64,000 bases of DNA from Poseidonia sp. Its GTDB lineage: Archaea > Thermoplasmatota > Poseidoniia > Poseidoniales > Poseidoniaceae. Below the pieces are notes generated by a model, which was not told where the DNA came from, searched no databases, and saw only the letters and a list, made by a program, of their open reading frames with translations. Where the stretch lies: the NCBI GenBank assembly GCA_038148515.1, contig JAYQVP010000002.1, positions 25,635-89,634 of the forward strand, given 5' to 3'. A program made the translations under genes and the position numbers. Below, piece by piece: positions 6,516 through 53,011 of this stretch. The stretch's first letter is position 1; the number at the start of each line of letters is the position of its first letter.

Positions 6516-6587
6516 GGCGACCCCTCAATAACAAGGCCACGCGGGTGATTCTTCAACATAACCCTCGGGCCGTACGCACGACATCGG

Positions 6588-7778: not shown

Positions 7779-7855
7779 GAACTTCCCACACTCCTCCGTT
7801 TCTAAACTCCTCCCCTCGGAAGACTTCGCTTGAGAGAACGAGAACAGCGACGCTT

Positions 7856-8407
7856 ATGAGTCGGCGACACCCCCCGAGGTATATGGAGCGCTTTGTTGTC
7901 AAAAGGGGACTCGTGAAAAGCATGGGTGGAAATGCTGGACTCGCCAAATTGGCGACGGAGTACTTTGAGAACATCAACGTGAATGCAGATGGTGAATTCA
8001 CCGGCAATTTTGGATTGATGGTCGAAGTTCGGGGCGCCTACGACGACGAGGGAAAATTAGCCGTGGAGGTTCAACAGCTCAAAGGAGACGAGTTGGCTGC
8101 GTTTTTGGACGGTGCTGGTGGCCGAGAGCAAGCCATGGAATCGCGTCGCCGCTGGTCGGCGTTTTTGGACGAGGCCACGGGTTACAACGCCAAGCAACGA
8201 GGCGACAAAGCCAAGGAAGAAGCAAAGAAATTCTCCAAAGCCAAATCCGCCATCAAAATGGCACACAAATCCATGGAGATGATGCAGGACCTTGACCCTG
8301 CTGTCATCGAGACAGCCAACATGATGATCGCTGACATCGAAGCGACCATTGACAGCGGAAAAGCACCAACAGATACTCAAGTCAAGAAACTCAACGATCT
8401 CTTTTGA
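7856..8407 (+). CDS. Hypothetical protein (small alpha/beta domain plus K/E-rich helical tail)
   Basis: 183-aa ORF with no recognisable motif. The true start may be MERF (7883). Its stop overlaps the over-extended TTG start of the tyrS ORF. Confidence 0.5.
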   Translation: MSRRHPPRYMERFVVKRGLVKSMGGNAGLAKLATEYFENINVNADGEFTGNFGLMVEVRGAYDDEGKLAVEVQQLKGDELAAFLDGAGGREQAMESRRRWSAFLDEATGYNAKQRGDKAKEEAKKFSKAKSAIKMAHKSMEMMQDLDPAVIETANMMIADIEATIDSGKAPTDTQVKKLNDLF

Positions 8408-8418
8408 GGGCGACCACC

Positions 8419-9564
8419 ATGGGTACAACGCAAGACATTGGTGCGTTGTTAAGCGATCATCCCGACATCTCCGCTCTTCCCGAGGAAGACCAGGCTCGCA
8501 TCCACCTGATGGTGGGTGGCGTTGAGGAAGTCGTGGGCCTCGACCACCTCGTGCAAGCCCTTGCCGGCGGTCAATCCCACGGCGGTGATGAGACGCTTCG
8601 ATGCTATGTTGGTTTTGAGCCCAGCGGAAAGGCACACATTGGATGGAAAGTGTTGGCGCTGCAACTTCGCCGAATGTTGGACGCACGCACCAATGTGATG
8701 GTCTTTCTCGCCGATTGGCACGCTTGGGTCAACGACAAATTCAACGGCGACATGGACGCCATTCAAACCACTGCTCGTTACATGGAAGAGACCTTCAGAA
8801 GTTTGCTTGACCATCCCCCTGAGGGCGATGGCCCAGGTGAACTTCGGTTTGTATGGGCCTCACAGGTGATGGAATCAAGCGAGTACTGGGCTCGCGTGCT
8901 CAAATGCTCCAAAGGCGCGACCCTCGCCATGGTTCGCAAAACCTTCACGATCATGGGCAGGGACGAGGCTTCGTCGGACCATGACCTTTCGAAGTTTTAC
9001 TACCCCGCCATGCAGGCGGCTGATATCTTTGAGATGAAAATCGATGTCGCCATCGGTGGCATGGACCAGCGCAAAGCCCACATGTTTATGCGAGATGTTG
9101 CAACAAAATACGGATGGCCAAAAGCCACATGCCTTCACACCCCAATCATCTCTTCTCTCAAGGCCTCGGGTAGCCGAATGGAATCGTTCGACCACAAGAT
9201 GTCAAAGTCCAATCCCTCGGGCGCACTCTTGCTTCACGATACGCCGGAGCAACTCCGTAAGAAGATGCGAAAGGCCTACCTTGACCCCGAGGACCCCAAC
9301 TCGCCGGTGTATGAATTGGCCGAACACATCGTCCTGCCTGAATGCGGAGAAATCGTCGTTACGCCCGACCCTCGATTTGGCGAGCCAAGCGTTTGGACTT
9401 CACTGGATGACTTTCGACAAGCCGTCACCGAGGGAACCCTGCACCCTCTTGACGCCAAGTTCGGGGTCGCCGATGGATTGGCCAAAGGCTTGGAAAATCT
9501 TCGCCTACACTTTGAAAACAATCCTGAAACCTTGGAGCGTGTGACAGCGCTCACTCAGTCATGA
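8419..9564 (+). CDS. tyrS: Tyrosine--tRNA ligase (archaeal type)
   Basis: Class I HIGH-type block FEPSGKAHIGW and KMSKS block HKMSKSNP. Whole-length colinearity by eye with archaeal TyrRS (GGMDQRKAHMFMRD, C-terminal LHPLDAKFGVADGL). ATG 8419 is preceded by GAGGG; the track start at 8404 is a TTG. Confidence 0.85.
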   Translation: MGTTQDIGALLSDHPDISALPEEDQARIHLMVGGVEEVVGLDHLVQALAGGQSHGGDETLRCYVGFEPSGKAHIGWKVLALQLRRMLDARTNVMVFLADWHAWVNDKFNGDMDAIQTTARYMEETFRSLLDHPPEGDGPGELRFVWASQVMESSEYWARVLKCSKGATLAMVRKTFTIMGRDEASSDHDLSKFYYPAMQAADIFEMKIDVAIGGMDQRKAHMFMRDVATKYGWPKATCLHTPIISSLKASGSRMESFDHKMSKSNPSGALLLHDTPEQLRKKMRKAYLDPEDPNSPVYELAEHIVLPECGEIVVTPDPRFGEPSVWTSLDDFRQAVTEGTLHPLDAKFGVADGLAKGLENLRLHFENNPETLERVTALTQS

Positions 9565-20291: not shown

Positions 20292-20343
20292 TTGAATAGG
20301 TGTCACGGGCGCCTTTGAATCGGCCGGAGACATCGATGAGGAG

Positions 20344-20426
20344 CGCCGAGAGAGGGATTCGAACCCCCGCGTCCAAGGGACAGTGGATTTCGAATCCACC
20401 GCAATACCGGGCTATGCGACCTCGGC
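20344..20426 (-). tRNA. tRNA-Ser (anticodon CGA), class II with long variable arm; CCA not encoded
   Basis: Folded by hand from GCCGAGGTCGCATAGCCCGGTATTGCGGTGGATTCGAAATCCACTGTCCCTTGGACGCGGGGGTTCGAATCCCTCTCTCGGCG. Acceptor GCCGAGG/TCTCGGC (one G-U), 3-bp D stem, anticodon stem GTGGA/TCCAC with loop TTCGAAA. Variable arm GTCC-ctt-GGAC, T arm GGGGG-TTCGAAT-CCCTC, discriminator G. Confidence 0.9.
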
Positions 20427-20460
20427 TCCAACAGCACGCTTCGGCGCGACGGTCATAAGC

Positions 20461-20682
20461 ATGATGTTCCGTGTCCGTCCCATGGAGGTCCAGTTTCGCT
20501 CGAGGGAAGGCGATGTGAAGGTCGAGGTCGCACCCGGCACCACTGTCCGAGCGGCACTTACGAAAGCGGGCTTGTTGCCATCCATGGTCATCGTCAGCCA
20601 CGATGGTACTGTCGTCCCTCACTCAACGACCCTTGAAAGCGACGTTGAATTACTGGTAACCACCATCTCTTCAGGCGGCTGA
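20461..20682 (+). CDS. ThiS/MoaD/SAMP-type ubiquitin-like beta-grasp protein ending in Gly-Gly
   Basis: ...MEVQFRSREGDVKVEVAPGTTVRAALTKAGLLPSMVIVSHDGTVVPHSTTLESDVELLVTTISSGG* shows the typical ThiS pattern and a C-terminal GG. The track start at 20383 lies inside the tRNA gene. ATG candidates are 20461 and 20482. Confidence 0.7.
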   Translation: MMFRVRPMEVQFRSREGDVKVEVAPGTTVRAALTKAGLLPSMVIVSHDGTVVPHSTTLESDVELLVTTISSGG

Positions 20683-22560
20683 AGACGAACCCCTACGGAC
20701 CACATGAAGCGAAGATTGTCGCGTATAATCAGCTCTGGTTTCCACGGCCCACGCATCCAACCCAACGTTGGCCACCACGACCGTGTCCCCGACCTCAGCG
20801 ATGTCGTATTGTGGCCCCCAATCATCAAACCAACCCTCAACTTTGGTGGCCCCCGTGTTGTCCATGATCATCATGCCTCGGCGTGACCATCGTTGCCCGT
20901 TTCGACCTACACCGCTTTTTTCGAATTTGTAGACGAGGAGACCCGTCAGATTATGTTTGGCTTGCATATCAAGGAGGTCCAATCCTTCTTCGCCCCCGTC
21001 GTTGGGCAAGACTCGCGCAAACGGGTCGATCTTGAGGACGATTTCCCCTTTCCAATTGACGGTAAAAACAGCGTTCTCCACCACTGCAGACATACCGCGC
21101 TCCAAGGGGAAGGGCACGGTCGAACCTCCGTCATGGTGTTCGTCGGTGGCGATCTGGACCTGGGCCATGTGTTGACCTTGCTTGAAACTCAAGCGATTTG
21201 AGCGCTGTTGAGAGGCACTGCCAACGTAAACCAATTCACCACAAAATGTGCCCCGCGGATCGAGGCTTCCGATGCTGGCCAGCGCTGTCCGAGCCGAAGC
21301 ACCGGGCAATTGAATGGGCGAGGCGGAGGGCGGTTCATCACCCTCACTGCCCGGACAGACTGCGCTCCAGTCGCACCGGTCACATCGACTGCCCTCAGGT
21401 GATTCAATGCTGACGCCTCCAGGGCCAAATCCGCGAAGGGGGGAGGGCTCTGCCGGGTACTCGTGGATAGAAGGTGTTCCTTGCTTCAAGAATTGCCAGA
21501 GTTGGAAGAGTTCCTGTTCACGTTCCAGGTGTTCAGCAACGCTCGGAACGTCAACGGACTTGATGCTGGGATGGCCAAGGTACCAAATCTCCAGACCACC
21601 GAGTTGGTCCTTTCTGCCATGGGTGATGTACCAAAGCATAGCATAGATCTTGAGTTGTTCAACGTAATCACCTGAACGATCGGACGCCCCCACACTGGCT
21701 TTCAAATCCACCACCTTTGAAGCGGCCTCCCATCGATAGACCAAATCATACTCACCCTGAAACCAATGATCAGGATGAACAGCATTCATACTAAACGAGG
21801 GGGCATCGGGGTCCACAAACCATGGTCGTGCCACCTCCCACGCTTCGGCCCATGTGATATTACCGCTACATGCAAGTGGGTGCTTACCGGTTGGAAATGA
21901 GAGTAAAGCATAGCCGTCAGGAGCCGGCCATTCTGGTCGGTGACCGGTACGCCAAGATTCGAACCAAGGGCCACCGCCTGCGTCAAAACATCGCTCGACC
22001 TCACCGAGATGGAATTCAAGGGCTCGCTCGGTCATCGACAAGCACACATCTTCGTCAACTTCGCTCCAGTCTCCTGCCTTGCGTTCGTCTGTTTCCCACT
22101 CCAGGCGCATGCGCTCCAACGCCGGGGGAAGATGGATGGCACAGCGTTGAAGCGCCCATTTGCGCAGGTCCTCCAACGATTGTGGACGCTCATCTTCAAA
22201 GAACGGTAACAAGGCTGCAGCCGGCCAAGTTGAGGCAGGCACCGATGAATCGTATCGTCCATCATCCCCGAAAGGCGACGGGGGCAAGGCTTCAGGCACA
22301 GCATGTGGCGAAATGATCGATGGGGACTCCCTCAACACCCGGCAAACCGCTTCCTCAACAGCACGTCCTACGAAAAGGACCGGTATTTGTGGCATCTTGA
22401 ATCGATAGACCTTTTCGTAAAACCAAAGACGAGCACAAGCCCGATAGGTGTTGGCTTGACTGGCCGATAACCGTTGGAATCGGCCAACTTTGTCCTCATC
22501 CCTCTCAACGATTTGCACAGGCATGAGGTTCCCTACCCTTGACGCTACTTGAAGCCTCAT
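20671..22560 (-). CDS. Cas4/RecB-like Fe-S PD-(D/E)xK nuclease fused to two C-terminal OB-like modules (paralogue A)
   Basis: 629 aa. N-terminal LSASQANTYRACARLW, then GEYDLVYRWEAASKVVDLKAS (motifs II/III), EQLKIYAMLW (QxxxY) and CDRCDWSAVC (CX2CX5C). OB-like C-terminus GLLVYKFEKSGVGRNGQRWSRRGMMIMDNTGATKVEGWFDDW..GDTVVVANVGLDAW. Alternative start MPVQ at 22524. Confidence 0.75.
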   Translation of the reverse strand: MRLQVASRVGNLMPVQIVERDEDKVGRFQRLSASQANTYRACARLWFYEKVYRFKMPQIPVLFVGRAVEEAVCRVLRESPSIISPHAVPEALPPSPFGDDGRYDSSVPASTWPAAALLPFFEDERPQSLEDLRKWALQRCAIHLPPALERMRLEWETDERKAGDWSEVDEDVCLSMTERALEFHLGEVERCFDAGGGPWFESWRTGHRPEWPAPDGYALLSFPTGKHPLACSGNITWAEAWEVARPWFVDPDAPSFSMNAVHPDHWFQGEYDLVYRWEAASKVVDLKASVGASDRSGDYVEQLKIYAMLWYITHGRKDQLGGLEIWYLGHPSIKSVDVPSVAEHLEREQELFQLWQFLKQGTPSIHEYPAEPSPLRGFGPGGVSIESPEGSRCDRCDWSAVCPGSEGDEPPSASPIQLPGASARTALASIGSLDPRGTFCGELVYVGSASQQRSNRLSFKQGQHMAQVQIATDEHHDGGSTVPFPLERGMSAVVENAVFTVNWKGEIVLKIDPFARVLPNDGGEEGLDLLDMQAKHNLTGLLVYKFEKSGVGRNGQRWSRRGMMIMDNTGATKVEGWFDDWGPQYDIAEVGDTVVVANVGLDAWAVETRADYTRQSSLHVVRRGSSSAA

Positions 22561-22581
22561 GTTCCGCAGGACTGGGCCGTT

Positions 22582-24312
22582 TCATGCGAATTCCAAGCGG
22601 GTCTTTCGGCTATCAATGCGCAACTGAAGGACGCCCGAGCGCCAACCCAACTCAGCGCCGATCAGACCCAACGCATCACCCGGGCGTAAGTCGAGCAAAC
22701 GCTGCTGGATGCTCCCTCCGAAGGCCACGACTTCGGCGATGTGAGTCCCGTCCCAAAGCATGAAGGAAACCATCGTCCACGGTTTGCCGTCCAAACGAAT
22801 GCCGTCTCGCCGTTGTATGGAGAGGACGTACCCCCTCACATTCCCTCTCGTTCGTAGCAAACCCAGTCGGGTGTGACCAACATCATCGGTGCTCGATTCG
22901 GAAAAGGATTCAATGGATGAACGCTCATCCACGTAAAGACGAGCTTGGTCTCGCCAAACCCCGGGAAGGGCTTCTTGGAGAGAAATCTCTTGCTCTGCCC
23001 AATCATGAAGGGTCGGAAAGACCCCTGGCTCGCTTTCCTCAACGGCGATGTGCTGCTGCCCAACCACGAGCATCGCACCGTGAACCAATTCACCAAAGTG
23101 ATTGGGGAAAGGGCCCCACAACCCGGTCAATCGCCCCTTCACCGCTACCCTTCCCATCAAGTCTCCCAAGGGCCCGTACGGAGCAGACGGGGTCAGTTTG
23201 GCGAGCGATTGCAGCCATGAAAATTGAGGAGGAGTGTGCCAAACTTCGTCATTCTCTGAGGACACAGCACACCAACCGCACCCAGCGGCGGTTCCCTCGC
23301 AAGCCTCAGTTGGAGATACGGGAAAGACATTCGCATCAGGAGCCATCGCCTGCATCGACCGATGAACATCCATGTAAAGGCGCGAAAGACCCTCGATGTC
23401 GTCCGATGACGGTGCATCAAAGGTCACCCGCTCTGCGCTCTCAAGGTACCAACCTTCCATTCCTGATGCCGTTTGCCCATCGTGCGTTTCGTGCCACAAC
23501 CAAGCGTAAAAGCGAAGTTGATGCTCAAGCGAAGCCGCAAAGACAGAAGAGGGTGAGCCTGATTTAATGTCAACAAGTCGAATTCGCCCGTCCCATCGCA
23601 GAACCATATCGAGTTCACCAGAAGCCCACCCCTCCGGATGATACAGACGTTGAGGTTGGTGGACCCGGGGGTCTTTGAACCAAGGACGGGCACACTCCCA
23701 AGCCTCGTTCCACTCGATGGGGCAACCCGCCGTCTGCCACGTCGGACGCTGCTCCACCTGCCATCGTCGCATCTGAACATCGGGAATTTTGTCAGGCAGT
23801 GGGAATTGAGGTGTGCTGGAGAGCGAGGGCTCACGAACGGAAAACGGGTTGTCGCCACGGCGGCGTGCCTCGAGGTGCGGTCCGCCGCCTTGCCGGTAGC
23901 AATCTTGAACCTCATGAAGAAACAAGGACAATGCGCCCTGCAAACGAGCCCAGACCGTGTCGGAGGTCACGCTTTCCCACGCATCATCATCACTCTTCCA
24001 AAGGACATCCTCCCATTGAGAACGACCCGTTTCAAGAACGTCGTCGACCAGAGGTCCGATTTGTTGCTCGGCCCAGGTTTCAAGTGATTCGAGGGAGCTG
24101 ACGCTGGGTGGGTGCATCATCAGTAGACGACAAACAGCGTCTTCAAGCAACACCCCAAGCAGTTGGGAGGGACGGGTTGGACCTTGGAGGCCACCTTGAT
24201 ACCCCATCAACCATTGACGCTGACAACGCAAAAACGTGGTGAGGGAACTGGCGGATAAACGACTGCGAGAGCGTCCCAACGGGCCACCCCGAGGAGGCAA
24301 ACCTACCGGCAC
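22582..24312 (-). CDS. Cas4/RecB-like Fe-S PD-(D/E)xK nuclease fused to two C-terminal OB-like modules (paralogue B)
   Basis: 576 aa. LSASSLTTFLRCQRQW, GELDMVLRWDGRIRLVDIKSG, HQLRFYAWLW and CEGTAAGCGWC (CX6CX2C). OB-like C-terminus GYVLSIQRRDGIRLDGKPWTMVSFMLWDGTHIAEVVAFGG..GDALGLIGAELGW. GTG start at 24312 with GAGGTGG 4-5 nt upstream. Confidence 0.75.
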   Translation of the reverse strand: MPVGLPPRGGPLGRSRSRLSASSLTTFLRCQRQWLMGYQGGLQGPTRPSQLLGVLLEDAVCRLLMMHPPSVSSLESLETWAEQQIGPLVDDVLETGRSQWEDVLWKSDDDAWESVTSDTVWARLQGALSLFLHEVQDCYRQGGGPHLEARRRGDNPFSVREPSLSSTPQFPLPDKIPDVQMRRWQVEQRPTWQTAGCPIEWNEAWECARPWFKDPRVHQPQRLYHPEGWASGELDMVLRWDGRIRLVDIKSGSPSSVFAASLEHQLRFYAWLWHETHDGQTASGMEGWYLESAERVTFDAPSSDDIEGLSRLYMDVHRSMQAMAPDANVFPVSPTEACEGTAAGCGWCAVSSENDEVWHTPPQFSWLQSLAKLTPSAPYGPLGDLMGRVAVKGRLTGLWGPFPNHFGELVHGAMLVVGQQHIAVEESEPGVFPTLHDWAEQEISLQEALPGVWRDQARLYVDERSSIESFSESSTDDVGHTRLGLLRTRGNVRGYVLSIQRRDGIRLDGKPWTMVSFMLWDGTHIAEVVAFGGSIQQRLLDLRPGDALGLIGAELGWRSGVLQLRIDSRKTRLEFA

Positions 24313-24348
24313 TCGCCCACCTCATAGCAGGTTGCAAGCACACTGAAA

Positions 24349-26127
24349 TTATGCATCGTAGGAATAATAGTCACCACTGCTGCGTTGTTCTCGGTCTTTT
24401 CGACTTTCGCCTTTGTTGATACGTGGTCGCCGTGAGTCATGATCTCGGCGGAAGGTGACATCGACTCCGGACAAAAAACGGTTCATCCCTTGTCGGAGGC
24501 TGAAAGGCCCAGTTGCGTTGCCTGCCACCCCGCCCTGCCCCTCAAAGACGAGCAGTGAGTCTGAAACGATGTCGATGAAGTAGACATCGTGGTCGATGAC
24601 GAAGGCTGACTTTTCATTGGCTTCCATCGTTCTTCGGATCGCCTTCGCTGCTTCCATTCGTGCGCTGGCGTCCAAGTGCGCTGACGGCTCGTCGAGCAAG
24701 TAGAGGTCGGCTTCACGACCCAAGCAAAGCGCAATGGCCACGGCTTGGCGCTCACCACCGGACAATTTCTTGACGCGCTTTGGGAGCAATTGGTCAATGC
24801 CCAAAGCCTTGATCACGTTGACATGGTATTCCCCGCTCCGCCAGCGTGGTCCCAATTCGCTGTCCAGCCATTGTTGAACCGACCCCTCCACATCAACGCC
24901 GATATGCTGCGGCTTGTAGGAGATTGACGCCTCTGCGGTCACCCACCCTTCGTCGTAGGTGTGCTCGCCTGCAAGGATTTTGATCATGGTGGATTTACCG
25001 GTACCGTTGGCACCGACCACGCCGACAACTTCACTTCGATGGACAGCCCCCTCACCGGAAGTAAGTTTAAACTCACCAAGTTGCTTGCTCAAGGCGCCCC
25101 ACTGAACAACGGGCGTCCCAATCTCGACTGAGCGGTCGCGGTGCCGAAGGAATTTGATCGGCTTATCCCGGATTCGGACATTCTCCTCGGGCAAGAAACC
25201 ATCCAGATAGGTGTTGATGGCTTGTCGAGTGGAACGAGCCGGCGTGAAAATCCCAAACGCTCCCTTCTTGCCGTACACGATGTGGACCAAATCAGCGAGC
25301 ACGTCGAGGACGGCCAGGTCGTGCTCGATGACGATGACTCGCTTCGTCTCTGCTAAGGCTTGTACAATTCGAACAATGCGCATGCGCTCGTGGATATCAA
25401 GATAGGACGACGGCTCGTCAAAGAAATACACGTCCGCATCTCTCAAGATGGTGGCGCAAATCGCCATGCGTTGCAATTCACCACCAGAGAGTTGCTGCAC
25501 CGTTCGGTCGAGCAGATGGTCAATTCCCAAAGCAACGGTCATCTCCTCAAGCAGATTGCGCTCGTTGACCTTCGTCAACAGTTCACGAACGGTCCCACTC
25601 ACGCGTTGAGGCAATCGGTCAACATTCTGAGGCTTCACTGCCACGTTGATGTCGCTTCGTTGAACCGCAATGAAAAAATCCCGCAGTTCCCCTTTGGGCA
25701 GAGCGTCGATGACATCATCCCAATGTGGTTCATCGTTCAGCCAGTCACCGAGGTTTGGAATCAAACGGCCGGACAGGGCGCTGATTGCGGTAGATTTGCC
25801 CATCCCATTGGGTCCAAGGATGCCAACCACGCTTTCCTTGGAGGGGGTGGGCAATCGGAAGAGACGGAAGCCGTTCATCGAATAACGATGAATCATATCG
25901 GTTTCCAATTCGCTTGGCAAATTCTCGATGATCAACGCATCGTGAGGGCACTTGTTCACGCATATGCCGCACCCGATGCAGAGGCTCTCGGAGATATGGG
26001 GTTTGCCGGTGTGACTGTCCATGATGATGCATTCCTGCCCGTTGCGTACCGGTGGACAGAAGTCGTGGCATTCATCGTTGCATTTCTTGGGTTGGCAATT
26101 GTCTTCTTTCAAGACCGCTACACGCAT
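24349..26127 (-). CDS. abcE1: ABCE1 / RNase L inhibitor-type ribosome recycling ATPase
   Basis: 592 aa. N-terminal Fe-S domain (CQPKKCNDECHDFCP; CIGCGICVNKCP), two ABC cassettes (Walker A GPNGMGKST and GANGTGKST; signatures LSGGELQR and LSGGERQ). Confidence 0.93.
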   Translation of the reverse strand: MRVAVLKEDNCQPKKCNDECHDFCPPVRNGQECIIMDSHTGKPHISESLCIGCGICVNKCPHDALIIENLPSELETDMIHRYSMNGFRLFRLPTPSKESVVGILGPNGMGKSTAISALSGRLIPNLGDWLNDEPHWDDVIDALPKGELRDFFIAVQRSDINVAVKPQNVDRLPQRVSGTVRELLTKVNERNLLEEMTVALGIDHLLDRTVQQLSGGELQRMAICATILRDADVYFFDEPSSYLDIHERMRIVRIVQALAETKRVIVIEHDLAVLDVLADLVHIVYGKKGAFGIFTPARSTRQAINTYLDGFLPEENVRIRDKPIKFLRHRDRSVEIGTPVVQWGALSKQLGEFKLTSGEGAVHRSEVVGVVGANGTGKSTMIKILAGEHTYDEGWVTAEASISYKPQHIGVDVEGSVQQWLDSELGPRWRSGEYHVNVIKALGIDQLLPKRVKKLSGGERQAVAIALCLGREADLYLLDEPSAHLDASARMEAAKAIRRTMEANEKSAFVIDHDVYFIDIVSDSLLVFEGQGGVAGNATGPFSLRQGMNRFLSGVDVTFRRDHDSRRPRINKGESRKDREQRSSGDYYSYDA

Positions 26128-26219: not shown

Positions 26220-26759
26220 TCAAATCAGACCCTTGAGGTGCTCGTGTCCACGGATGAGACGAATCGTGCACGGGGTTGGGAACTTCATGCTCGCCTTGCG
26301 CAAGGCATCACGGGCAGTGAGGTAGTGTTGAGCGTTGACCTGAATAGACAAAATTCGTTGGCCACGCTTGATTCGGGCGGCGGTACCAACGTTCTTGCCG
26401 AAGGCGCAGCGCATGCCTTGTGAGACACGGTCGGCACCTGCACCGGTCGCCTGCTTGTTTTCTCGCAGAACATGGTGAGGGAAGGTGTGGACACGGAGGG
26501 CGTACCCTTGTGGGCCGGCTTGCTTACGAATCGTCGAGTTGGAGACGACACGAGCAGCCTCGAGAGCGGTGTGACGGATTTGAACATCATTATCGGCTCT
26601 CAGTTCAATGACGACATTGAACTGACCTGTTTCAGCAGCGCGACGGTTGCCGACGTGAAACTGATGAATTCGGTTGTTCGGGACACCGCCGATGTACTTA
26701 CGGCGGGTGTAAGCAGGCCCTTTCAAGCGTCGGTACATCACAGCGGGCTTTCGTGCCAT
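26220..26759 (-). CDS. rpl10e: 50S ribosomal protein L10e (uL16)
   Basis: MARKPAVMYRRLKGPAYTRRKYIGGVPNNRI... is the typical L10e N-terminus. 179 aa from ATG 26759; the track start at 26843 adds 28 unlikely residues. Confidence 0.9.
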   Translation of the reverse strand: MARKPAVMYRRLKGPAYTRRKYIGGVPNNRIHQFHVGNRRAAETGQFNVVIELRADNDVQIRHTALEAARVVSNSTIRKQAGPQGYALRVHTFPHHVLRENKQATGAGADRVSQGMRCAFGKNVGTAARIKRGQRILSIQVNAQHYLTARDALRKASMKFPTPCTIRLIRGHEHLKGLI

Positions 26760-28104: not shown

Positions 28105-28195
28105 CCCGTTGCTCGGCAAGAACGAGGCGCTTCCTCTCAGTCGATTGAGAACCTTCATGTGCCCTCGTCGACTTCATCCAACTCCAGCGAAAGCC

Positions 28196-30847
28196 ATGGA
28201 GGTGAAACGATTGTCAAAACGGAGCATGATGGACCAGTTCTTTGAACTCAAGGACCAACATCCCGATACCGTTCTCTTCTTTCGCATGGGTGATTTCTAC
28301 GAATTGTTTCACGGCGACGCCGAAACGGCAGCGGACGTGCTGGGCCTGACCCTTACATCGAGGGACAAAAACGCAGAGGAGCCTATTCCGATGGCAGGAT
28401 TCCCCTGGCACGGTCTTGAGGATCACCTCCGAACAATGCTGAAAGCCGGTTACAAAGTCACGGTGGCCGAACAAGAAGACGAGCTTAGAGAAGGTGCAAA
28501 ATTGCTCGAACGGGTCGTCACTCGGGTGTACACCCCTGGTAGTTTGTTTGAGGAGGGGTTGTTGGACGGGGACGAGCCAGCCCTACTCGCCGCTGTGGTC
28601 ATCGGAAAAGGCGAGTTGGGCGTCTCCACCATCGACGCTTCCACGGGAAAAGCCTGGGCGGCAACGCATGAAGGCGAGGACCGATTTCTGCGGTTGTTGG
28701 ACGACCTTCAGCGATGGCAACCCAGCGAACTGGTCATGTCGCCAGGCGACACGGAGGATCCGGCGATGAGCAAGATCTTCCTCGCCCTCGACAATACCAT
28801 GGTGAGCCATCACTCCATCAGCGATTCCAAACGAAACGAACGCCTTCAATCGATGCTCAATGTTGCGGATTTGGGCCACCTCGACCTTGATCACGCCCCC
28901 TTAGCGATTTCCGCTACGGGCTTAGCGGCGGATTACCTCGCAACCGTTCACTTGCAATCCGATGTCCCGCTTCAGGACGTCGAAGTGGTTGAAGAACAGG
29001 GTCATTTGTTGTTGGACCAGACCACGCTTCGCAACCTTGAACTGACCCGAACCTTGGCAGGTGAACACGACGGCAGCCTTCTCTCAAGTTTGAACCGATG
29101 CCGGACGGCCATGGGGCGTCGTTTGCTTCGCACATGGTTGCTTCAACCCTTAGCTCATCTCGAGGCCATCGATGCTCGTCACCAGTCGGTGGGAGCGCTC
29201 TCACGGTCGGCCCTCCGTCTGGACGGCCTACGCACCACCTTGCGCGGGATTCGTGACATGGAGCGATTGGCCACGCAACTGGCCTACCAGAGGTGCAACG
29301 CCCGGGATCTGGTCGCAATGGCTCATGCCCTCGAGCAGATGCCTGCTGTCATGCAGTGGTGCAACGACAGCAACGACCCCTTGCTGATGCACCTCAGTCA
29401 GGGCTTGGACCGACTTGACGACGTTCGAAGGATGGTTCAAGCCACGCTGGTGGAAGCGCCACCGCTTGGTCTTCGCGACGGCGGCCTTCTCAACGACGGC
29501 GTTGATGAGGAGATCGATCGCCTGCGCGGCGTGACTCAAGAGGGGAAATCATGGTTCACAAAACTCGAAAAACGTCTCAAGGAAGATTTAGGAATCGCCT
29601 CCTTGAAGGTCAAAATGAACCGTCAGGTTGGGTGGTACATCGAAGTAACCCAAACGCACGAGGACAGTGTGCCTCAGACGTGGCGCAGAAAGCAACAATT
29701 GACCAACGGGTCACGCTATGTGACCGATGAATTGGTTGAGCGGGACGACCTACTCTTGAGGGCTGATTCGACCCTCAAGGAACTCGAGTATCGACGCTTC
29801 CTTGAATTGAGGACCTACTGTCACCAACACGCCTCGTCGTTGGCCGACATTGCTCGGAGGGTCGCCGCCGTTGATGTGTTGCAGTGCTTTGCAAGCGTGA
29901 GTCGTGAACGAGGATGGGTCAAGCCGGAGATGGTTGAGGGGACAACGTTGAAGCTTGAGGGGGCCCGACACCCCGTTCTTGAGACGATGCAGGGCTTTGT
30001 CCCTAACCCGGTGAACATGAACAAACGAAGGTCGTTTTTACTCATCACAGGGCCCAACATGGGAGGGAAGTCTACCTATCTGAGGACCGTGGCATTGGTG
30101 TCCGTCTTGGCGCAGGCTGGATGTTTCGTACCGGCGAAGAAAGCCAAACTTGGTTTGGTGGACCGCATCTTCACCCGTGTTGGCGCCAGCGACGACTTGA
30201 AGCGAGGGCGCTCCACATTCATGATGGAGATGATCGAAGTCGCCCACATTCTGAAACGTGCTACACCTCGCTCGCTGGTCTTATTGGACGAAATCGGTCG
30301 CGGTACCTCGACATTTGACGGCCTTTCCATCGCTTGGTCGGTCACCGAAGATATTTGCCAGCGCATCGGCGCACGAACACTCTTTGCAACGCATTACCAC
30401 CAACTGATTGGTTTGGAGGGCGAAATTGACGGATTGCATAATGTCCACGTGCAAGTCGCCCAAGACAACGGTGAATTGCGGTTTTTGCACACCGTTGCCG
30501 ATGGACCTTGCGATGAATCCTACGGTGTTCAAGTCGCTGCGCTCGCAGGCTTGCCTCGAAGCGTCGTGGAACGAGCCAGCGACCTGTTGTCGTTTCTTGA
30601 ACGCCAAGCAGGGGGTGCAAAGGCAGGTGAACACGGAGCACCCGAAGCAAGGGACCAGGGCCAAGCCAGCTTGATGGGGTATTTCGCCGCTGCCTCCCTT
30701 CAAACATCATCCGGACCCGACCCCTTGACCAATGGAGAAAAGGCCGTCCTTGCCCAACTCTCTTCGACAAATATCGATGAATTGTCGCCAAGAGAGGCAT
30801 TGGACCTGTTGTACAGCATGAAAAAGGACATGGAGGGTGAACGATGA
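28196..30847 (+). CDS. mutS: DNA mismatch repair protein MutS (bacterial MutS1 type)
   Basis: MMDQFFELKDQHPDTVLFFRMGDFYELF (mismatch-binding Phe-x-Glu block), Walker A GPNMGGKST and DEIGRGTSTFDG. Start trimmed to MEVKR (ATG 28196); the track start at 28109 is possible but adds 29 aa. Confidence 0.92.
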   Translation: MEVKRLSKRSMMDQFFELKDQHPDTVLFFRMGDFYELFHGDAETAADVLGLTLTSRDKNAEEPIPMAGFPWHGLEDHLRTMLKAGYKVTVAEQEDELREGAKLLERVVTRVYTPGSLFEEGLLDGDEPALLAAVVIGKGELGVSTIDASTGKAWAATHEGEDRFLRLLDDLQRWQPSELVMSPGDTEDPAMSKIFLALDNTMVSHHSISDSKRNERLQSMLNVADLGHLDLDHAPLAISATGLAADYLATVHLQSDVPLQDVEVVEEQGHLLLDQTTLRNLELTRTLAGEHDGSLLSSLNRCRTAMGRRLLRTWLLQPLAHLEAIDARHQSVGALSRSALRLDGLRTTLRGIRDMERLATQLAYQRCNARDLVAMAHALEQMPAVMQWCNDSNDPLLMHLSQGLDRLDDVRRMVQATLVEAPPLGLRDGGLLNDGVDEEIDRLRGVTQEGKSWFTKLEKRLKEDLGIASLKVKMNRQVGWYIEVTQTHEDSVPQTWRRKQQLTNGSRYVTDELVERDDLLLRADSTLKELEYRRFLELRTYCHQHASSLADIARRVAAVDVLQCFASVSRERGWVKPEMVEGTTLKLEGARHPVLETMQGFVPNPVNMNKRRSFLLITGPNMGGKSTYLRTVALVSVLAQAGCFVPAKKAKLGLVDRIFTRVGASDDLKRGRSTFMMEMIEVAHILKRATPRSLVLLDEIGRGTSTFDGLSIAWSVTEDICQRIGARTLFATHYHQLIGLEGEIDGLHNVHVQVAQDNGELRFLHTVADGPCDESYGVQVAALAGLPRSVVERASDLLSFLERQAGGAKAGEHGAPEARDQGQASLMGYFAAASLQTSSGPDPLTNGEKAVLAQLSSTNIDELSPREALDLLYSMKKDMEGER

Positions 30848-32853
30848 CGCCTCGGCGCATTCGTCAACTCGACGAAACCACCATCGGCCACATCGCCGCT
30901 GGTGAAGTGGTTGAACGACCGGCCCAAGTCGTAAAGGAACTCATCGAAAACAGCCTTGATGCTGGTGCAACCAGCATTACCGTGCACATTGAAGAGGGAG
31001 GATTTGAGCGCATGGTTGTTGAAGACAACGGCCATGGAATCGAGCGGGACGACCTGTCACTTGCCCTCGACCGACACGCCACATCCAAATTAAGCTCAAA
31101 GGAAGACCTCTCCAACATTGCGTCCTTGGGTTTCCGAGGTGAAGCCTTGGCCAGCATCGGGATGGTCTCACGCCTTGAGGTGGCGAGTAAGCCGCCCGGC
31201 GATGAAGGGGCCCTCATCGTGATGGAGGACGGTGTTAAATCCGAGGTGAAGGCCAAAGGCATGGCGCAGGGAACCGTCATCACGGTGGAGCACTTGTTTC
31301 GCAACACCCCCGCACGCCTCGCCTTCCAACGGCGACCTGAAACTGAAGCCGCACGTGTCGTCGACGTCGTGGTCGACCACGCCTTGGGGTCGCCGCATTG
31401 CAGTTTTCACCTCAAGAACGAACGGAGAACCTTGCTCAATATCCCCGCAACTGAGGACGCACTGGACCGATTGTACGACATCATGGGGGCCCAAGCCACG
31501 GAACTTGTCACCCTGCTATCTCCACCCGAGGATGAACAGGCACCCGGAGAAGAACGATGGGAAGGATGGATCAGCACTCCCGACATCACTCGCGGCAAAG
31601 GCGATGATATCCACGTCCTCATCAACGACCGGCCCGTAGCAGCAGGTCCGTTTCTTCAGGCGGTTCGACGCGGGTACAAAACGCGCCTGATGCATGGCCG
31701 CCACCCGCTGGCGGTGGTCAATTTGCGATGCCCCCCCAGCGAGGTGGATGTAAACGTCCACCCAACGAAACGAGAGGTTCGCCTCCGTCATTCTTGGCGG
31801 GTTCTTGAACGTCTGGAGCGCGCCATTGCCCACACACTTGAAGCGATACCAACCGAACCAGACAGCACCGGAGGCATCCCTGCTCTTCAAGGATTAAACA
31901 CCTCGAAAGATATTAAGTTGGTGGAAACTTACTTAGAGCCAGAACCATCTGAAATCCGTTCCTCACTGGCCCAAGCCTCGGGCATCTCAGCGCCATCCTC
32001 AATCCCCTCCGCCCCCGCCCCTTCACCACCAGCATGGGCGGTGGCTGCAGGACAACAACTCAACCTCATTGGGCAACAAGCGGTTGAGGCTGAATCCAAA
32101 TCCAAACCGCGACCTATGTCCTCCTCGCCCCTCGGACAAGCCCTTCTTCCAACCCTTCCCGACCAACCCATGGCTGATCGTCTCTCTCCCGCCGAGCGCG
32201 CCCTCCACCGATTGGAAGGAACGGCAGCAACGAGTTGGCCAAGCCGTGAAGCGCCCTTAGAAGGTGAATTGAACGATTTACCACCGATGGAACCGCTGGC
32301 GCAATTTGCTGATTCCTACATCTTGGTCCAAGCCGGAGAGGAATTGCTGCTCATCGACCAGCACGCCCTCCACGAGCGCGTCCGTTACGAGCGTCTTCGA
32401 CATGCAGGGCAGGCATGGGAACCTCAACAAAGGCTAACACCGCTTCGATTGGACTTGGATGCTCGCCGTGTTGCCGTGGTAGAAGCACACGAAGCGAAAC
32501 TTCGAGAATTGGGCTTTGTTTTGGAAGAGCACGAGGGTGAATGGCAGTTGATGGCCTCCCCTCGGTTGCTTCAGGGCGATGAATTGCGCCCGTTCTTGCT
32601 CGATCTCCTGCAAGACCTCGCCAACGACGGAGGGCCATTGGAAACCATTGAAGCAAAGAAGGACCACATCGCATTCATGAACGCCTGCCGAGGTGCGGTG
32701 AAAGCCAATGAACGTCTGTCACTTCCCGAAATGAGGCGCTTGCTGGATGACATGCGAAGAATCCCAAACCCTTGGGCCTGTGTCCACGGGCGCCCCACCT
32801 CACTGCGAATTCCGATCGACAGCCTCGACCATCACTTTGGGCGTCATGGATGA
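30844..32853 (+). CDS. mutL: DNA mismatch repair protein MutL (endonuclease-type)
   Basis: GHKL N-terminus IAAGEVVERPAQVVKELIENSLDAGA. C-terminal endonuclease motifs LIDQHALHERVRYE (DQHAxxExxxxE) and CVHGRP. The ATG overlaps the mutS stop (ATGA at 30844). Confidence 0.92.
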   Translation: MTPRRIRQLDETTIGHIAAGEVVERPAQVVKELIENSLDAGATSITVHIEEGGFERMVVEDNGHGIERDDLSLALDRHATSKLSSKEDLSNIASLGFRGEALASIGMVSRLEVASKPPGDEGALIVMEDGVKSEVKAKGMAQGTVITVEHLFRNTPARLAFQRRPETEAARVVDVVVDHALGSPHCSFHLKNERRTLLNIPATEDALDRLYDIMGAQATELVTLLSPPEDEQAPGEERWEGWISTPDITRGKGDDIHVLINDRPVAAGPFLQAVRRGYKTRLMHGRHPLAVVNLRCPPSEVDVNVHPTKREVRLRHSWRVLERLERAIAHTLEAIPTEPDSTGGIPALQGLNTSKDIKLVETYLEPEPSEIRSSLAQASGISAPSSIPSAPAPSPPAWAVAAGQQLNLIGQQAVEAESKSKPRPMSSSPLGQALLPTLPDQPMADRLSPAERALHRLEGTAATSWPSREAPLEGELNDLPPMEPLAQFADSYILVQAGEELLLIDQHALHERVRYERLRHAGQAWEPQQRLTPLRLDLDARRVAVVEAHEAKLRELGFVLEEHEGEWQLMASPRLLQGDELRPFLLDLLQDLANDGGPLETIEAKKDHIAFMNACRGAVKANERLSLPEMRRLLDDMRRIPNPWACVHGRPTSLRIPIDSLDHHFGRHG

Positions 32854-39241: not shown

Positions 39242-39348
39242 GGGTGCTGGCAGGGTCCCTCGCGGCCTCGAATCGCTCGCTCGAGTCCTGAATTCCTGCG
39301 AAGACATATATGCTTTGAATGCTGCAAAACAATCGAGGTGCAGAACAA

Positions 39349-52923: not shown

Positions 52924-53011
52924 ACTTTGAGCATAGGGCCAACGGTTCAAAAGGAAAACGGCTCGACTTTCAAGCCGACATACCTAAAATCCGATTCGGC
53001 GTGGTGGAACC

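What the first reader, a model, noticed from the sequence alone, without database searches (positions are those of the whole stretch)
20671..24312. Tandem paralogous Cas4/RecB-type Fe-S nucleases fused to two OB-like modules, in a housekeeping operon context
Two co-directional minus-strand ORFs are obvious paralogues. B runs 24312->22582 (576 aa) with a GTG start 4-5 nt after GAGGTGG. A runs 22560->20671 (629 aa), or 617 aa from an MPV.. start at 22524 that mirrors B's MPV.. N-terminus. Shared blocks read directly from the translations: RLSAS..T(Y/F)..C.R.W / AVCR(V/L)L / GGGP / EAWE.ARPWF.DP / GE(Y/L)D(L/M)V.RW...VD(L/I)K / QL(K/R).YA.LW..TH / WYL. By established knowledge these are the diagnostic elements of RecB/Cas4-family PD-(D/E)xK nucleases: the motif II Asp, motif III D-x-K and the QxxxY motif. 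They also include a 1+3 cysteine set of the kind that ligates a 4Fe-4S cluster in Cas4, AddB, Dna2 and Exo5. The single N-terminal Cys is in RAC/LRC; the C-terminal triad is CDRCDWSAVC (CX2CX5C) in A and CEGTAAGCGWC (CX6CX2C) in B. The last ~200 aa of each protein carry two beta-rich modules that look like RPA-type OB folds (A: GLLVYKFEKSGVGRNGQRWSRRGMMIMDNTGATKVEGWFDDW..GDTVVVANVGLDAW; B: GYVLSIQRRDGIRLDGKPWTMVSFMLWDGTHIAEVVAFGG..GDALGLIGAELGW). No cas1/cas2, CRISPR array, helicase or ATPase is adjacent. Instead they follow rpl10e and ABCE1 on the same strand (36-nt and 21-nt spacers) and look compositionally like their surroundings. I cannot place a duplicated, heterodimer-like Fe-S nuclease + 2xOB architecture in a described family. 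The nearest analogies are Dna2 (OB + Fe-S nuclease + helicase) and the AddB nuclease. Inference: a lineage-specific ssDNA-end or flap-processing complex, or, less likely given the context, a defence nuclease.
Basis: partly seen in the sequence, partly recalled or inferred. Interest (0 to 1): 0.8.

Follow-up and report, generated by a model that had tools for sequence, protein, structure and literature searches.

The report
Paired Fe-S nucleases with RPA-like OB folds
Two neighbouring, related genes in a Marine Group II archaeon each encode a Cas4/RecB-type nuclease with four iron-sulfur-type cysteines fused to two RPA-like single-strand-binding modules; the pair is conserved next to the ribosome-recycling gene ABCE1 across this abundant ocean order, has not been studied, and most likely trims single-stranded DNA.

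Summary
ORF B (22582-24312, minus, 576 aa) and ORF A (20671-22524, minus, 617 aa from the conserved MPV start) are true paralogues (BLASTP E=3e-36).

- **Nuclease half.** Both pass Pfam PDDEXK_1. Motif II Asp, motif III D-x-K, QxxxY and four cysteines are invariant in orthologues.
- **OB half.** AlphaFold models (pLDDT 81 and 78) show an N-terminal Cas4/RecB-like nuclease and a C-terminal tandem OB. The tandem OB matches RPA70 DBD-A/B by fold. The distal OB matches archaeal RPA/SSB by sequence profile (E=1.8e-8).
- **Distribution.** The family is narrow: 528 hits among 1.84 billion representatives, and every named member is from Poseidoniales (Marine Group II).
- **Context.** The A/B duplication predates the order's radiation. 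The ABCE1-B-A gene string is conserved in every lineage examined.
- **Not defence.** There are no cas genes, no CRISPR array, no helicase fusion and no viral copies.
- **New points.** Poseidoniaceae B swapped one Fe-S cysteine ligand. One lineage has a B with no cluster cysteines. In one of its sub-clades, A's slot holds a DnaQ-type 3'-5' exonuclease. A is precisely deleted in at least one genome, so an obligate A/B heterodimer is unlikely.

Best reading: ssDNA-directed housekeeping nucleases. This is a new domain architecture of a known superfamily. The activity and the biological role are inferred, not shown.

The parts
22582..24312 (-). Gene B: 576-aa Cas4/RecB-type nuclease with four Fe-S-type cysteines, fused to a tandem OB module. 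GTG start.
   Evidence: ORF. Pfam PDDEXK_1 64.8 bits. Orthologue alignment with invariant C30, E57, D235, D248, K250, Q265, Y269, C338, C345, C348. AF2 pLDDT 81, pTM 0.80.
23233..24270 (-). B nuclease domain (about aa 15-360): N-terminal CxRxW cysteine helix, GxxxE motif I, helical insert, PD-(D/E)XK core, cysteine triad.
23269..23301 (-). B cysteine triad C338-x6-C345-x2-C348. This is a derived arrangement: the ancestral third Cys was lost and a new upstream Cys was gained.
   Evidence: Family alignment.
22897..23157 (-). B proximal OB fold (OB1, about aa 386-472).
   Evidence: AF2 secondary structure. Foldseek tandem-OB matches. Mean pairwise identity 0.64 among orthologues.
22585..22872 (-). 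B distal OB fold (OB2, about aa 481-576), RPA/SSB type.
   Evidence: Pfam tRNA_anti-codon OB, E=3.6e-4. Profile hit to P. abyssi Rpa1 OB-1 E=1.8e-8 and Saccharolobus SSB E=6e-4. Foldseek.
24317..24323 (-). GAGGTGG Shine-Dalgarno-like element 4 nt upstream of B's GTG start.
   Evidence: Sequence.
20671..22524 (-). Gene A: 617-aa paralogue of B with the same architecture. The true start is the ATG at 22524 (MPV...).
   Evidence: Pfam PDDEXK_1 48.8 bits. AF2 pLDDT 78, pTM 0.76. Invariant C30, E57, D260, D273, K275, Q290, Y294, C381, C384, C390.
21349..22482 (-). A nuclease domain (about aa 15-392) with the canonical C-x2-C-x5-C triad.
20989..21264 (-). A proximal OB fold (OB1, about aa 421-512). 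It has diverged from B's OB1 beyond profile detection.
20689..20973 (-). A distal OB fold (OB2, about aa 518-612), homologous to B's OB2.
   Evidence: hhalign probability 91%, E=1e-6. Foldseek RPA70 1jmc E=4.9e-9..
24349..26127 (-). ABCE1 (RLI) gene, directly upstream on the same strand. The ABCE1-B adjacency is conserved across Poseidoniales.
26220..26759 (-). rpl10e, upstream on the same strand.

Best explanation
A and B are chromosomal, vertically inherited housekeeping nucleases specific to Marine Group II archaea (Poseidoniales). Each is a metal-dependent PD-(D/E)XK nuclease of the Cas4/RecB/AddB kind. Its fold is probably braced by a four-cysteine iron-sulfur cluster. A rigidly attached RPA70-like pair of OB folds extends it at the C-terminus. 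Proposed mechanism (inferred): the tandem OB grips single-stranded DNA as RPA DBD-A/B does and presents the strand or its end to the nuclease active site. The enzyme would then trim ssDNA tails, flaps or gaps without a helicase of its own. The two paralogues arose by a duplication older than the order and have specialised: the nuclease and distal OB are conserved, while the proximal OB has diverged. B is the constant core component, always encoded directly after ABCE1 and probably co-transcribed with it. A is an accessory second nuclease that can be lost or, apparently, replaced by a DnaQ-type 3'-5' exonuclease. Shown here: domain architecture, residue conservation, distribution, synteny and the natural variants. 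Inferred: Fe-S binding, ssDNA specificity, nuclease activity, and the role in DNA end, flap or gap processing.
For: Paralogy; hhalign E=1.5e-47. Nuclease identity: Pfam PF12705 above the gathering score in both, and Foldseek matches to phage Cas4/RecB-family (COG2887) exonuclease models over 320-340 columns, with TM-score normalised to the target up to 0.56. Family-wide invariant residues, short forms included, in B numbering: C30, G53, D235, D248, K250, Q265, Y269, C345, C348. The four cysteines are kept by a compensatory ligand swap in Poseidoniaceae B. Tandem OB: RPA70 DBD-A/B, Teb1-AB and HIN-200 at E=5e-9 to 2e-8. The distal OB matches archaeal RPA OB-1 (E=1.8e-8) and Saccharolobus SSB (E=6e-4), and the family's conserved aromatic residue aligns with SSB Trp56. 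All domains are comparably conserved, and pTM of 0.76-0.80 indicates a fixed arrangement of the domains. Housekeeping character: 74 of 75 judgeable Poseidoniaceae loci have ABCE1-B-A. The same string occurs in MGIIb and in a divergent lineage represented by a 3-Mb contig, although the flanking genes have rearranged. G+C is the same as the surroundings. No viral copies. No cas genes, CRISPR or defence neighbours. DNA-exonuclease theme: in six GTDB species genomes plus one metagenome contig, the slot after B holds a DnaQ/epsilon-family DEDDh exonuclease instead of A. No A orthologue at the expected identity exists in the 5.8-billion-protein database.
Against: There is no biochemical evidence for activity, for Fe-S binding or for substrate. 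The closest solved nuclease could not be named: sequence profiles give only Cas4 4r5q at E=0.059, and the PDB Foldseek lists were filled with OB proteins. The only conserved neighbour is a translation factor (ABCE1), not a DNA-repair gene. The DEDDh family also contains RNases. Whether A and B interact was not tested. One lineage has a B with no cluster cysteines, so the cluster is not indispensable. Absence of A elsewhere in the DEDDh-clade genomes was not proven, because whole genomes could not be searched and the scan was limited by its exact patterns.
Confidence: 0.6

Rival explanations
1. The nucleases act on RNA and are functionally coupled to ABCE1. B, together with A or the DEDDh exonuclease, would cleave and trim mRNA or rRNA at stalled or recycled ribosomes, as an archaeal no-go-decay or surveillance nuclease.
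For: The ABCE1-B adjacency, with gaps of only 5-36 nt in most lineages, is the one invariant neighbourhood across the order while the flanks rearrange. The block sits among translation genes: rpl10e, aIF2alpha, S27e, L44e, Nop10. The replacement gene belongs to Pfam RNase_T, which includes RNases. OB folds can bind RNA.
Against: By established knowledge, all characterised Fe-S PD-(D/E)XK nucleases of this clade (Cas4, AddB, Dna2, Exo5) act on DNA. The distal OB is closest to RPA/SSB ssDNA binders, not to S1 or cold-shock RNA binders. The DEDDh protein's best NCBIfam matches are DNA polymerase III epsilon, DinG-associated and ExoX-type DNA exonucleases. Gene order in these genomes is generally very stable, so adjacency alone is weak evidence.
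Confidence: 0.1
2. It is an anti-virus or anti-plasmid defence nuclease: a solo-Cas4-like or Druantia-like effector.
For: Weak PADLOC hits to DruK (B: 27 bits, E=5.7e-7) and to Cas4 models. A few database entries are named 'CRISPR/Cas system-associated exonuclease Cas4'.
Against: NCBIfam cas4 scores 14.5 and 12.7 bits against a cutoff of 65. No cas1, cas2, CRISPR array or Druantia partner genes in 64 kb. Synteny is fixed order-wide inside a housekeeping block, which is not island-like. Composition matches the host. No copies on 2.9 million viral contigs. Inheritance is vertical, with clades A and B each mirroring the lineages.
Confidence: 0.05
3. A and B form an obligate heterodimeric two-nuclease machine, like AddAB without the helicase motors, in which each subunit degrades one DNA strand polarity during end resection.
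For: Tandem paralogues are retained together in 74 of 75 loci, both with intact catalytic residues. The duplication is ancient. Their proximal OB folds have diverged, which suggests a division of labour. A second nuclease of a different kind (DEDDh, 3'-5') occupies A's slot in one sub-clade.
Against: A is precisely deleted in L072 relative to a relative that is 92% identical at the DNA level (L064), and A is also absent in L061. A appears to be lost in the DEDDh sub-clade. The short outgroup forms are single-copy. No interaction prediction could be run.
Confidence: 0.2
4. The nuclease domains are degenerate, and the proteins act as RPA-like ssDNA-binding or scaffold factors.
For: The OB modules are at least as conserved as the nuclease core. 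One lineage lost the cluster cysteines.
Against: Motif II, motif III and QxxxY are invariant across both clades, the deep lineages and the short forms, and are kept even in the cysteine-less B.
Confidence: 0.04

Closest known systems
Cas4 / RecB-family exonucleases of Pfam PF12705 (PDDEXK_1; COG2887), including solo-Cas4 and phage Cas4-like exonucleases
   Same: The nuclease half passes the Pfam threshold. It has the CxRxW N-terminal cysteine, a C-terminal cysteine triad, motif II Asp, motif III D-x-K and QxxxY. Its fold matches phage Cas4/RecB exonuclease models.
   Different: About three times larger. It has a helical insert of about 150 residues between motif I and the core, and a C-terminal tandem OB module. 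It is not linked to cas1, cas2 or CRISPR. It fails the NCBIfam cas4 model. It is so divergent that a family profile finds only 528 proteins among 1.84 billion representatives. No such fusion is mentioned in the Cas4 phylogenomics survey PMC5704561.
Dna2 (eukaryotes; bacterial Bad)
   Same: It combines an Fe-S PD-(D/E)XK nuclease with OB-type ssDNA binding in one polypeptide. A plausible common logic is that ssDNA is held and fed to the nuclease (established knowledge of Dna2; PMC7430649 for Bad, listed).
   Different: No SF1B helicase domain and no hit to Dna2 Pfam models. By established knowledge, Dna2 has a single OB N-terminal to the nuclease; here a tandem OB sits C-terminal to it. There is no detectable specific sequence relationship.
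AddAB / AdnAB / RecBCD helicase-nucleases
   Same: There are two paralogous nuclease-bearing subunits encoded side by side. By established knowledge, the AddB nuclease has the same 1+3 cysteine Fe-S 'staple'.
   Different: There are no helicase or ATPase domains at all. OB folds take the place of motor domains. A heterodimer has not been shown, and A is dispensable in some genomes.
RPA70 DBD-A/B and archaeal RPA/SSB OB folds
   Same: The C-terminal roughly 200 residues fold as a tandem OB that matches RPA70 DBD-A/B. The distal OB is a sequence-level relative of P. abyssi Rpa1 OB-1, Saccharolobus SSB and Thermoplasma Ta0387.
   Different: It is fused to a nuclease. No zinc-ribbon, AROD or trimerisation-core elements were detected. 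The proximal OB has no detectable sequence relative.
HerA-NurA and Mre11-Rad50 (archaeal end resection)
   Same: Only the proposed biological role is shared: generating or trimming ssDNA at DNA ends.
   Different: The folds are unrelated. There is no ATPase partner in the operon. Whether Poseidoniales have or lack HerA-NurA could not be tested here.

Membership tests
PD-(D/E)XK nuclease superfamily, RecB/Cas4 branch (Pfam PF12705 PDDEXK_1) | The profile HMM score is above the curated gathering threshold. | tested here: met
   A scores 48.8 bits and B 64.8 bits against a cutoff of 22.
PD-(D/E)XK nuclease superfamily, RecB/Cas4 branch (Pfam PF12705 PDDEXK_1) | The catalytic motifs are conserved: motif II Asp, motif III (D/E)-x-K and QxxxY. 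| tested here: met
   B has D235, D248-x-K250 and Q265...Y269. A has D260, D273-x-K275 and Q290...Y294. These are invariant in 17 orthologues of each and across 29 diverse family members.
PD-(D/E)XK nuclease superfamily, RecB/Cas4 branch (Pfam PF12705 PDDEXK_1) | There are four cysteines (one N-terminal, three C-terminal) positioned to ligate an Fe-S cluster. | tested here: met
   C30 plus C-x2-C-x5-C in A, in deep B lineages and in the short forms. Poseidoniaceae B has C-x4-6-C-x2-C after a ligand swap. One lineage lacks them entirely.
PD-(D/E)XK nuclease superfamily, RecB/Cas4 branch (Pfam PF12705 PDDEXK_1) | An Fe-S cluster is actually bound, and the protein has metal-dependent nuclease activity. 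| not testable with these tools
   This needs purified protein.
PD-(D/E)XK nuclease superfamily, RecB/Cas4 branch (Pfam PF12705 PDDEXK_1) | The fold is that of a RecB/Cas4-like nuclease. | tested here: met
   Foldseek against BFVD: HCTV-1 PD-(D/E)XK nuclease (TM-score normalised to target 0.56), a COG2887 RecB-family exonuclease (0.54) and a Streptomyces phage Cas4 exonuclease (0.47), each over 320-340 columns. No PDB nuclease neighbour was obtained.
CRISPR-associated Cas4 (TIGR00372) | The equivalog model score is above the cutoff. | tested here: not met
   14.5 and 12.7 bits against a cutoff of 65.
CRISPR-associated Cas4 (TIGR00372) | The gene is associated with cas1, cas2 or a CRISPR array. 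| tested here: not met
   No cas genes in the annotated 64-kb window, and no array. There are none in related loci either.
AddB/RecB/AdnAB helicase-nuclease | An SF1 helicase or helicase-like ATPase domain is fused to the nuclease. | tested here: not met
   No helicase or ATPase Pfam domain in A or B. The models show only the nuclease plus two OB folds.
Dna2 | The architecture is OB, then Fe-S nuclease, then SF1B helicase, with a match to Dna2 family models. | tested here: not met
   No Dna2 or helicase hit at E up to 10. The domain order differs.
RPA/SSB-type OB-fold ssDNA-binding domains | The fold is OB, arranged in tandem as in RPA70 DBD-A/B. | tested here: met
   Foldseek 1jmc_A E=4.9e-9 and 4gop_C E=1.9e-8, over about 230 columns. 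The secondary structure is beta1-3, helix, beta4-5, twice.
RPA/SSB-type OB-fold ssDNA-binding domains | There is a sequence-level relationship to RPA/SSB OB domains. | tested here: met
   For the distal OB only: P. abyssi Rpa1 OB-1 E=1.8e-8, 2k50 E=3.9e-4 and Saccharolobus SSB E=6.3e-4. The proximal OB has no detectable relative.
RPA/SSB-type OB-fold ssDNA-binding domains | The protein binds ssDNA. | not testable with these tools
   Only indirect evidence: the conserved aromatic residue (F531 in B, W565 in A) aligns with SSB Trp56.
Known anti-phage defence systems (PADLOC) | There is a significant match to a defence protein model, and that system's partner genes are present. | tested here: not met
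   Only weak hits at the nuclease-domain level (DruK 27 bits for B). No Druantia or other partner genes are nearby.

The most novel reading that the evidence does not exclude
B, with A or the DnaQ-type exonuclease as its partner, is physically and functionally coupled to the ribosome-recycling ATPase ABCE1. In that reading it is the missing archaeal nuclease of stalled-ribosome (no-go) RNA surveillance, built from a Cas4-like Fe-S nuclease and RPA-like OB folds. This would be the first RNA-directed member of the Fe-S Cas4/AddB/Dna2 clade. The evidence does not exclude it, because ABCE1-B is the only invariant adjacency across the order, with 5-36 nt gaps in most lineages.
Probability: 0.08. 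Interest if true: 0.85.

Novelty: new variant of a known kind. Interest (0 to 1): 0.55.

Why it matters
Marine Group II archaea are among the most abundant archaea in the surface ocean and have never been cultured, so their genome maintenance is known only from homology. This gene pair is one of the few large, order-wide conserved protein families in them with no assigned function.

The architecture joins two well-understood parts in a combination not described before: an Fe-S 'stapled' Cas4/RecB nuclease and an RPA-like tandem OB. It suggests a way to process ssDNA without a helicase.

The natural variants give ready-made comparisons for biochemistry:
- a cysteine ligand swap in Poseidoniaceae B;
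- a lineage whose B has no cluster cysteines;
- replacement of one paralogue by a DnaQ-type exonuclease;
- a clean deletion of A.

If the role is end resection or flap removal, it would show how a major mesophilic archaeal lineage does this step. If the ABCE1 linkage is functional, the implications are larger.

Tried and rejected
- **PDB sequence searches.** Single-sequence and narrow-profile searches gave nothing real for the nuclease half. Only the diverse profile A5 gave significant hits, and those were to the distal OB.
- **Foldseek against PDB.** For both models the top 50 were all tandem-OB proteins, so no solved nuclease neighbour could be named. The viral library had to serve instead.
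- **Short forms in GTDB.** The 444-477 aa single-module relatives gave no hits, and their three contigs gave uninformative context.
- **Viral contigs.** No relatives.
- **GTDB scan with the L093 A-type.** It recovered only itself. It is limited by exact 8-residue patterns, so it is inconclusive.
- **hhalign between OB modules.** OB1 against OB2, and the short-form C-terminal module against either OB, showed no detectable similarity. The origin of OB1 and the identity of the short-form module stay open.
- **Promoter and terminator scan.** The promoter model is the bacterial sigma-70 type and does not apply to archaea. Terminator-like sites (11 against 6.5 +/- 2.6 expected) are not meaningful.
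- **Reading the spacers by eye.** This only suggests there is no AT-rich TATA-like element between ABCE1, B and A.
- **Literature searches.** Searches for this architecture and for Marine Group II DNA repair found nothing relevant.
- **Extra conserved cysteines.** The idea that C61 and C138 of B form a second metal site was dropped, because they are not conserved in the wider family.
- **Mismatch-repair link.** A link to the nearby MutS-MutL genes was considered but not adopted, because that adjacency is absent in MGIIb and in the L081 lineage.

Full report
**1. What is in the sequence**

Two co-directional minus-strand ORFs occupy 20671-24312.

B runs 24312 to 22582 and is 576 aa. Its GTG start lies 4 nt after GAGGTGG and 36 nt after the ABCE1 stop codon.

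A is listed mechanically as 629 aa starting at 22560. The ATG at 22524 gives MPVQ.... The database protein has this 617-aa form, and M1-P2 is invariant in orthologues. I therefore take A as 20671-22524, with a 57-nt spacer after B.

G+C in the region (0.565-0.568) is the same as the surroundings.

**2. Paralogy and domain content**

A and B align over about 570 residues at 25% identity, E=3e-36. Profile-profile comparison of the nuclease halves gives probability 100%, E=1.5e-47.

Both pass the gathering threshold of Pfam PF12705 (PDDEXK_1): 48.8 and 64.8 bits against 22. They fail the NCBIfam Cas4 equivalog: 14.5 and 12.7 bits against 65. Hits to defence-system models are weak and reflect only the shared nuclease domain.

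In alignments of 17 orthologues each, the following are invariant:
- B: C30, E57 (motif I, GxxxE), D235, D248-x-K250, Q265...Y269, C338, C345, C348.
- A: C30, E57, D260, D273-x-K275, Q290...Y294, C381, C384, C390.

Across 29 diverse family members, the invariant positions in B numbering are C30, G53, W205, P210, G232, D235, W240, D248, K250, Q265, Y269, W288, C345 and C348.

**3. Structure**

AlphaFold2 models built from these alignments are confident: B has pLDDT 81 and pTM 0.80, and A has pLDDT 78 and pTM 0.76. Each shows a helix-rich N-terminal region, an alpha/beta core and two C-terminal five-stranded beta modules. The pTM values argue for a fixed arrangement of the domains.

Foldseek against the PDB aligns about 210-235 C-terminal residues of both models to tandem-OB proteins. 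These include RPA70 DBD-A/B (1jmc E=4.9e-9; 4gop_C E=1.9e-8), Teb1-AB and HIN-200 domains.

Against predicted viral structures, the nuclease half matches PD-(D/E)XK, Cas4 and RecB-family (COG2887) exonucleases over 320-340 columns, with TM-score normalised to the target up to 0.56. The OB half matches viral SSBs such as LEF-3.

A diverse family profile hits the OB-1 domain of Pyrococcus abyssi Rpa1 at E=1.8e-8. It also hits an RPA-related protein (2k50), Saccharolobus SSB (E=6e-4), Thermoplasma Ta0387 and RPA70. In the SSB alignment, the family's conserved aromatic residue (F531 in B, W565 in A) falls on Trp56. By established knowledge Trp56 is a base-stacking residue of that SSB.

The nuclease half has no significant sequence match to any solved structure. 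The best is Cas4 4r5q at E=0.059.

**4. Distribution and evolution**

Large-database searches return hundreds of close homologues of both proteins. They are named only 'PD-(D/E)XK nuclease family protein' or 'hypothetical', and come from Candidatus Poseidoniales, Poseidoniaceae, Thalassarchaeaceae or 'Euryarchaeota archaeon' MAGs.

An exhaustive HMM search of 1.84 billion representatives with a joint A+B profile finds only 528 proteins at E<=1e-3 and 75 at E<=1e-30. About 35 of them are full length. The family is therefore narrow and well separated from the rest of the superfamily.

A neighbour-joining tree splits the archaeal members into an A clade and a B clade. Each clade contains Poseidoniaceae, MGIIb-type and deep high-GC lineages, so the duplication predates the radiation of the order.

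Three rare short proteins (444-477 aa; nuclease plus one C-terminal beta module; single copy) lie outside both clades. One is on a contig with bacterial-type neighbours.

No relatives were found on 2.9 million viral contigs.

**5. Context**

Among 80 GTDB Poseidoniaceae loci, 74 of the 75 judgeable ones have A directly after B. The wider order is conserved as well: MutS(-), ORF403(-), rpl10e, ABCE1, B, A, SAMP-like, PAC2(-), aIF2alpha(-).

In MGIIb (L084, L085), in L086 and in a 3.0-Mb contig of a divergent lineage (L081), the upstream genes differ (SucCD, squalene/phytoene synthases). ABCE1-B-A followed by PAC2, Nop10, aIF2alpha, S27e and L44e is still kept. The ABCE1-B gap is 5-36 nt in most lineages.

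The rest of the window is ordinary chromosome: MutS/MutL, a Hel308-type helicase, GyrA, TldD/PmbA, ETF and carotenoid genes. There are no cas genes and no CRISPR array.

This is the signature of a vertically inherited housekeeping gene pair that is probably co-transcribed with ABCE1. It is not the signature of a defence island.

**6.

(a) Cysteine ligand swap. The ancestral triad is C-x2-C-x5-C. It is found in all of clade A, in deep B lineages and in the short forms. The Poseidoniaceae B subclade, which includes the window's B, lost the third Cys and gained one 4-6 residues upstream of the CxxC. The count stays at four. A compensatory change of this kind argues that the cluster matters.

(b) A B-type with no cluster cysteines. 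One Poseidoniales lineage (L087-L094, L096, L097) has a B-type with no N-terminal Cys (WERG or WERD) and no triad, but with intact catalytic motifs.

(c) A replaced by a different exonuclease. Within that lineage, one sub-clade (L093, L096, L097, L098) keeps A. In the other (L087-L092, L094; six GTDB species genomes plus one metagenome contig), the gene 17 nt after B is a 278-aa DnaQ/epsilon-family DEDDh 3'-5' exonuclease (Pfam RNase_T, 70 bits). A search of 5.8 billion protein clusters with the nearest A-type finds only the two A-keeping relatives (68-69% identity) and then drops to 39%. Both of those relatives sit in the canonical slot. This favours real loss of A in the DEDDh sub-clade. Whole genomes could not be checked, so it is not proven.

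(d) A deleted. A is precisely deleted (about 1.9 kb) in L072 relative to L064, which is 92% identical at the DNA level. A is also absent after B in L061.

(e) Uneven divergence of the OB folds. The distal OB folds of A and B are still recognisably homologous (hhalign 91%, E=1e-6). The proximal OB folds are not. A's OB1 is also less conserved among orthologues (0.45) than B's (0.64).

**7. Interpretation**

Shown: the architecture, the conservation, the distribution and the natural variants.

Inferred from established knowledge of Cas4, AddB, Dna2, Exo5 and RPA: each protein is a metal-dependent nuclease whose fold is stapled by an Fe-S cluster. The RPA-like tandem OB holds ssDNA and presents it to the active site. 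This would allow helicase-independent trimming of ssDNA ends, flaps or gaps.

B is the constant core. A is a specialised second nuclease that is usually kept but is dispensable or replaceable. This weakens the obligate-heterodimer idea while keeping a two-nuclease theme.

The replacement of A by a DnaQ-type exonuclease in the same operon slot is the best available functional hint. It points to exonucleolytic end processing. Its best family matches are DNA exonucleases.

**8. Rivals**

An RNA-directed role coupled to ABCE1 cannot be excluded, since ABCE1-B is the only invariant adjacency and the DEDDh family includes RNases. The RPA/SSB-type OB and the DNA specificity of every characterised relative argue against it.

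Defence is disfavoured on every count tested.

A purely DNA-binding role is disfavoured by the invariant catalytic residues.

**9. Comparison with known systems and novelty**

The nuclease half is a member of PF12705. The proteins are not Cas4 in the CRISPR sense, and they are not AddB, RecB or Dna2, because there is no helicase.

I found no description of a Cas4/RecB Fe-S nuclease fused to a tandem RPA-like OB. The sources checked include the Cas4 phylogenomics survey (PMC5704561) and the RPA evolution study (PMC10122647).

I rate it a new variant of a known kind: a new domain architecture and a lineage-specific paralogous pair within a known superfamily. Interest is moderate to good, because of the ecological weight of the host lineage and the set of natural variants. 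It is limited by the absence of any functional data.

Noticed in passing
window 23269-23301 (B residues C338-C348); family alignment: Compensatory Fe-S ligand swap. The ancestral triad C-x2-C-x5-C is replaced in the Poseidoniaceae B subclade by C-x4-6-C-x2-C: the third Cys is lost and a new upstream Cys is gained.
   Followed up: yes
L087 5001-7672; L088-L092 and L094 (B at about 6001-7820, DEDDh at about 7833-8672); L093, L096, L097: A Poseidoniales lineage has a B-type nuclease with no cluster cysteines but intact catalytic motifs. In one of its sub-clades, the A slot is occupied by a DnaQ/epsilon-family DEDDh 3'-5' exonuclease, and the PAC2/aIF2alpha block is no longer adjacent.
   Followed up: partly
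L072 6084-6092 compared with L064 6990-8872; L061 9756-10034: Gene A is precisely deleted (about 1.9 kb) in a single-cell genome relative to a relative that is 92% identical at the DNA level. A second genome also has B followed directly by the SAMP-like gene. B persists without an adjacent A.
   Followed up: partly
window 20343-20426 (-): tRNA-Ser(CGA), the only RNA gene in the window. It lies downstream of A on the same strand and under the spurious N-terminal extension of the mechanically listed ORF 20383-20682.
   Followed up: yes
window about 20482-20682 (+): A small (about 66 aa) ThiS/SAMP-like ubiquitin-fold protein ending in a diglycine (…SSGG). It converges on gene A and overlaps A's last 12 nt. 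In MGIIb loci, a 66-aa SAMP2-like gene sits at the same place but on the other strand.
   Followed up: partly
window 28109-32853 (+): A bacterial-type MutS-MutL pair with overlapping stop and start (30844-30847), divergently oriented about 4 kb from the nuclease pair. This adjacency holds in Poseidoniaceae but not in MGIIb or the L081 lineage.
   Followed up: partly
window 50-249: A 27-nt tandem repeat (7.4 copies, 89% matches) at the left edge of the window. Its period of nine codons suggests a Gly/Pro/Ser-rich repeat within a coding region.
   Followed up: no
window 23788-23829 (B residues about 162-175) and the equivalent loop in A (W199-G204): A conserved aromatic-P-x-P-D motif (FPLPDK in B, WPAPDG in A) lies in a loop that AlphaFold models with low confidence in both paralogues. 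It could be an interaction or DNA-contact element.
   Followed up: no
window 50326-52950 (-): A Hel308/Ski2-type archaeal helicase (DEAD, Helicase_C and archaeal helicase domain 4). It is the nearest DNA helicase, but it is 26 kb away and not linked to the nuclease pair.
   Followed up: no
L081 (ENA contig of 3,002,195 bp): A divergent high-GC lineage on a 3.0-Mb contig carries the same ABCE1, B-like, A-like, PAC2, aIF2alpha, S27e, L44e block. Its taxonomic position was not determined.
   Followed up: no
L010, L014, L015, L020, L037, L042 and other loci (ABCE1 match): ABCE1 identity to the window protein drops to 66-78% in some loci whose neighbouring genes are as similar as in loci with 82-91% ABCE1 identity. 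The cause is unexplained.
   Followed up: no
window 39319-41091 (+): A 590-aa protein whose only recognisable domain is a SAP DNA-binding motif, which is unusual in archaea.
   Followed up: no
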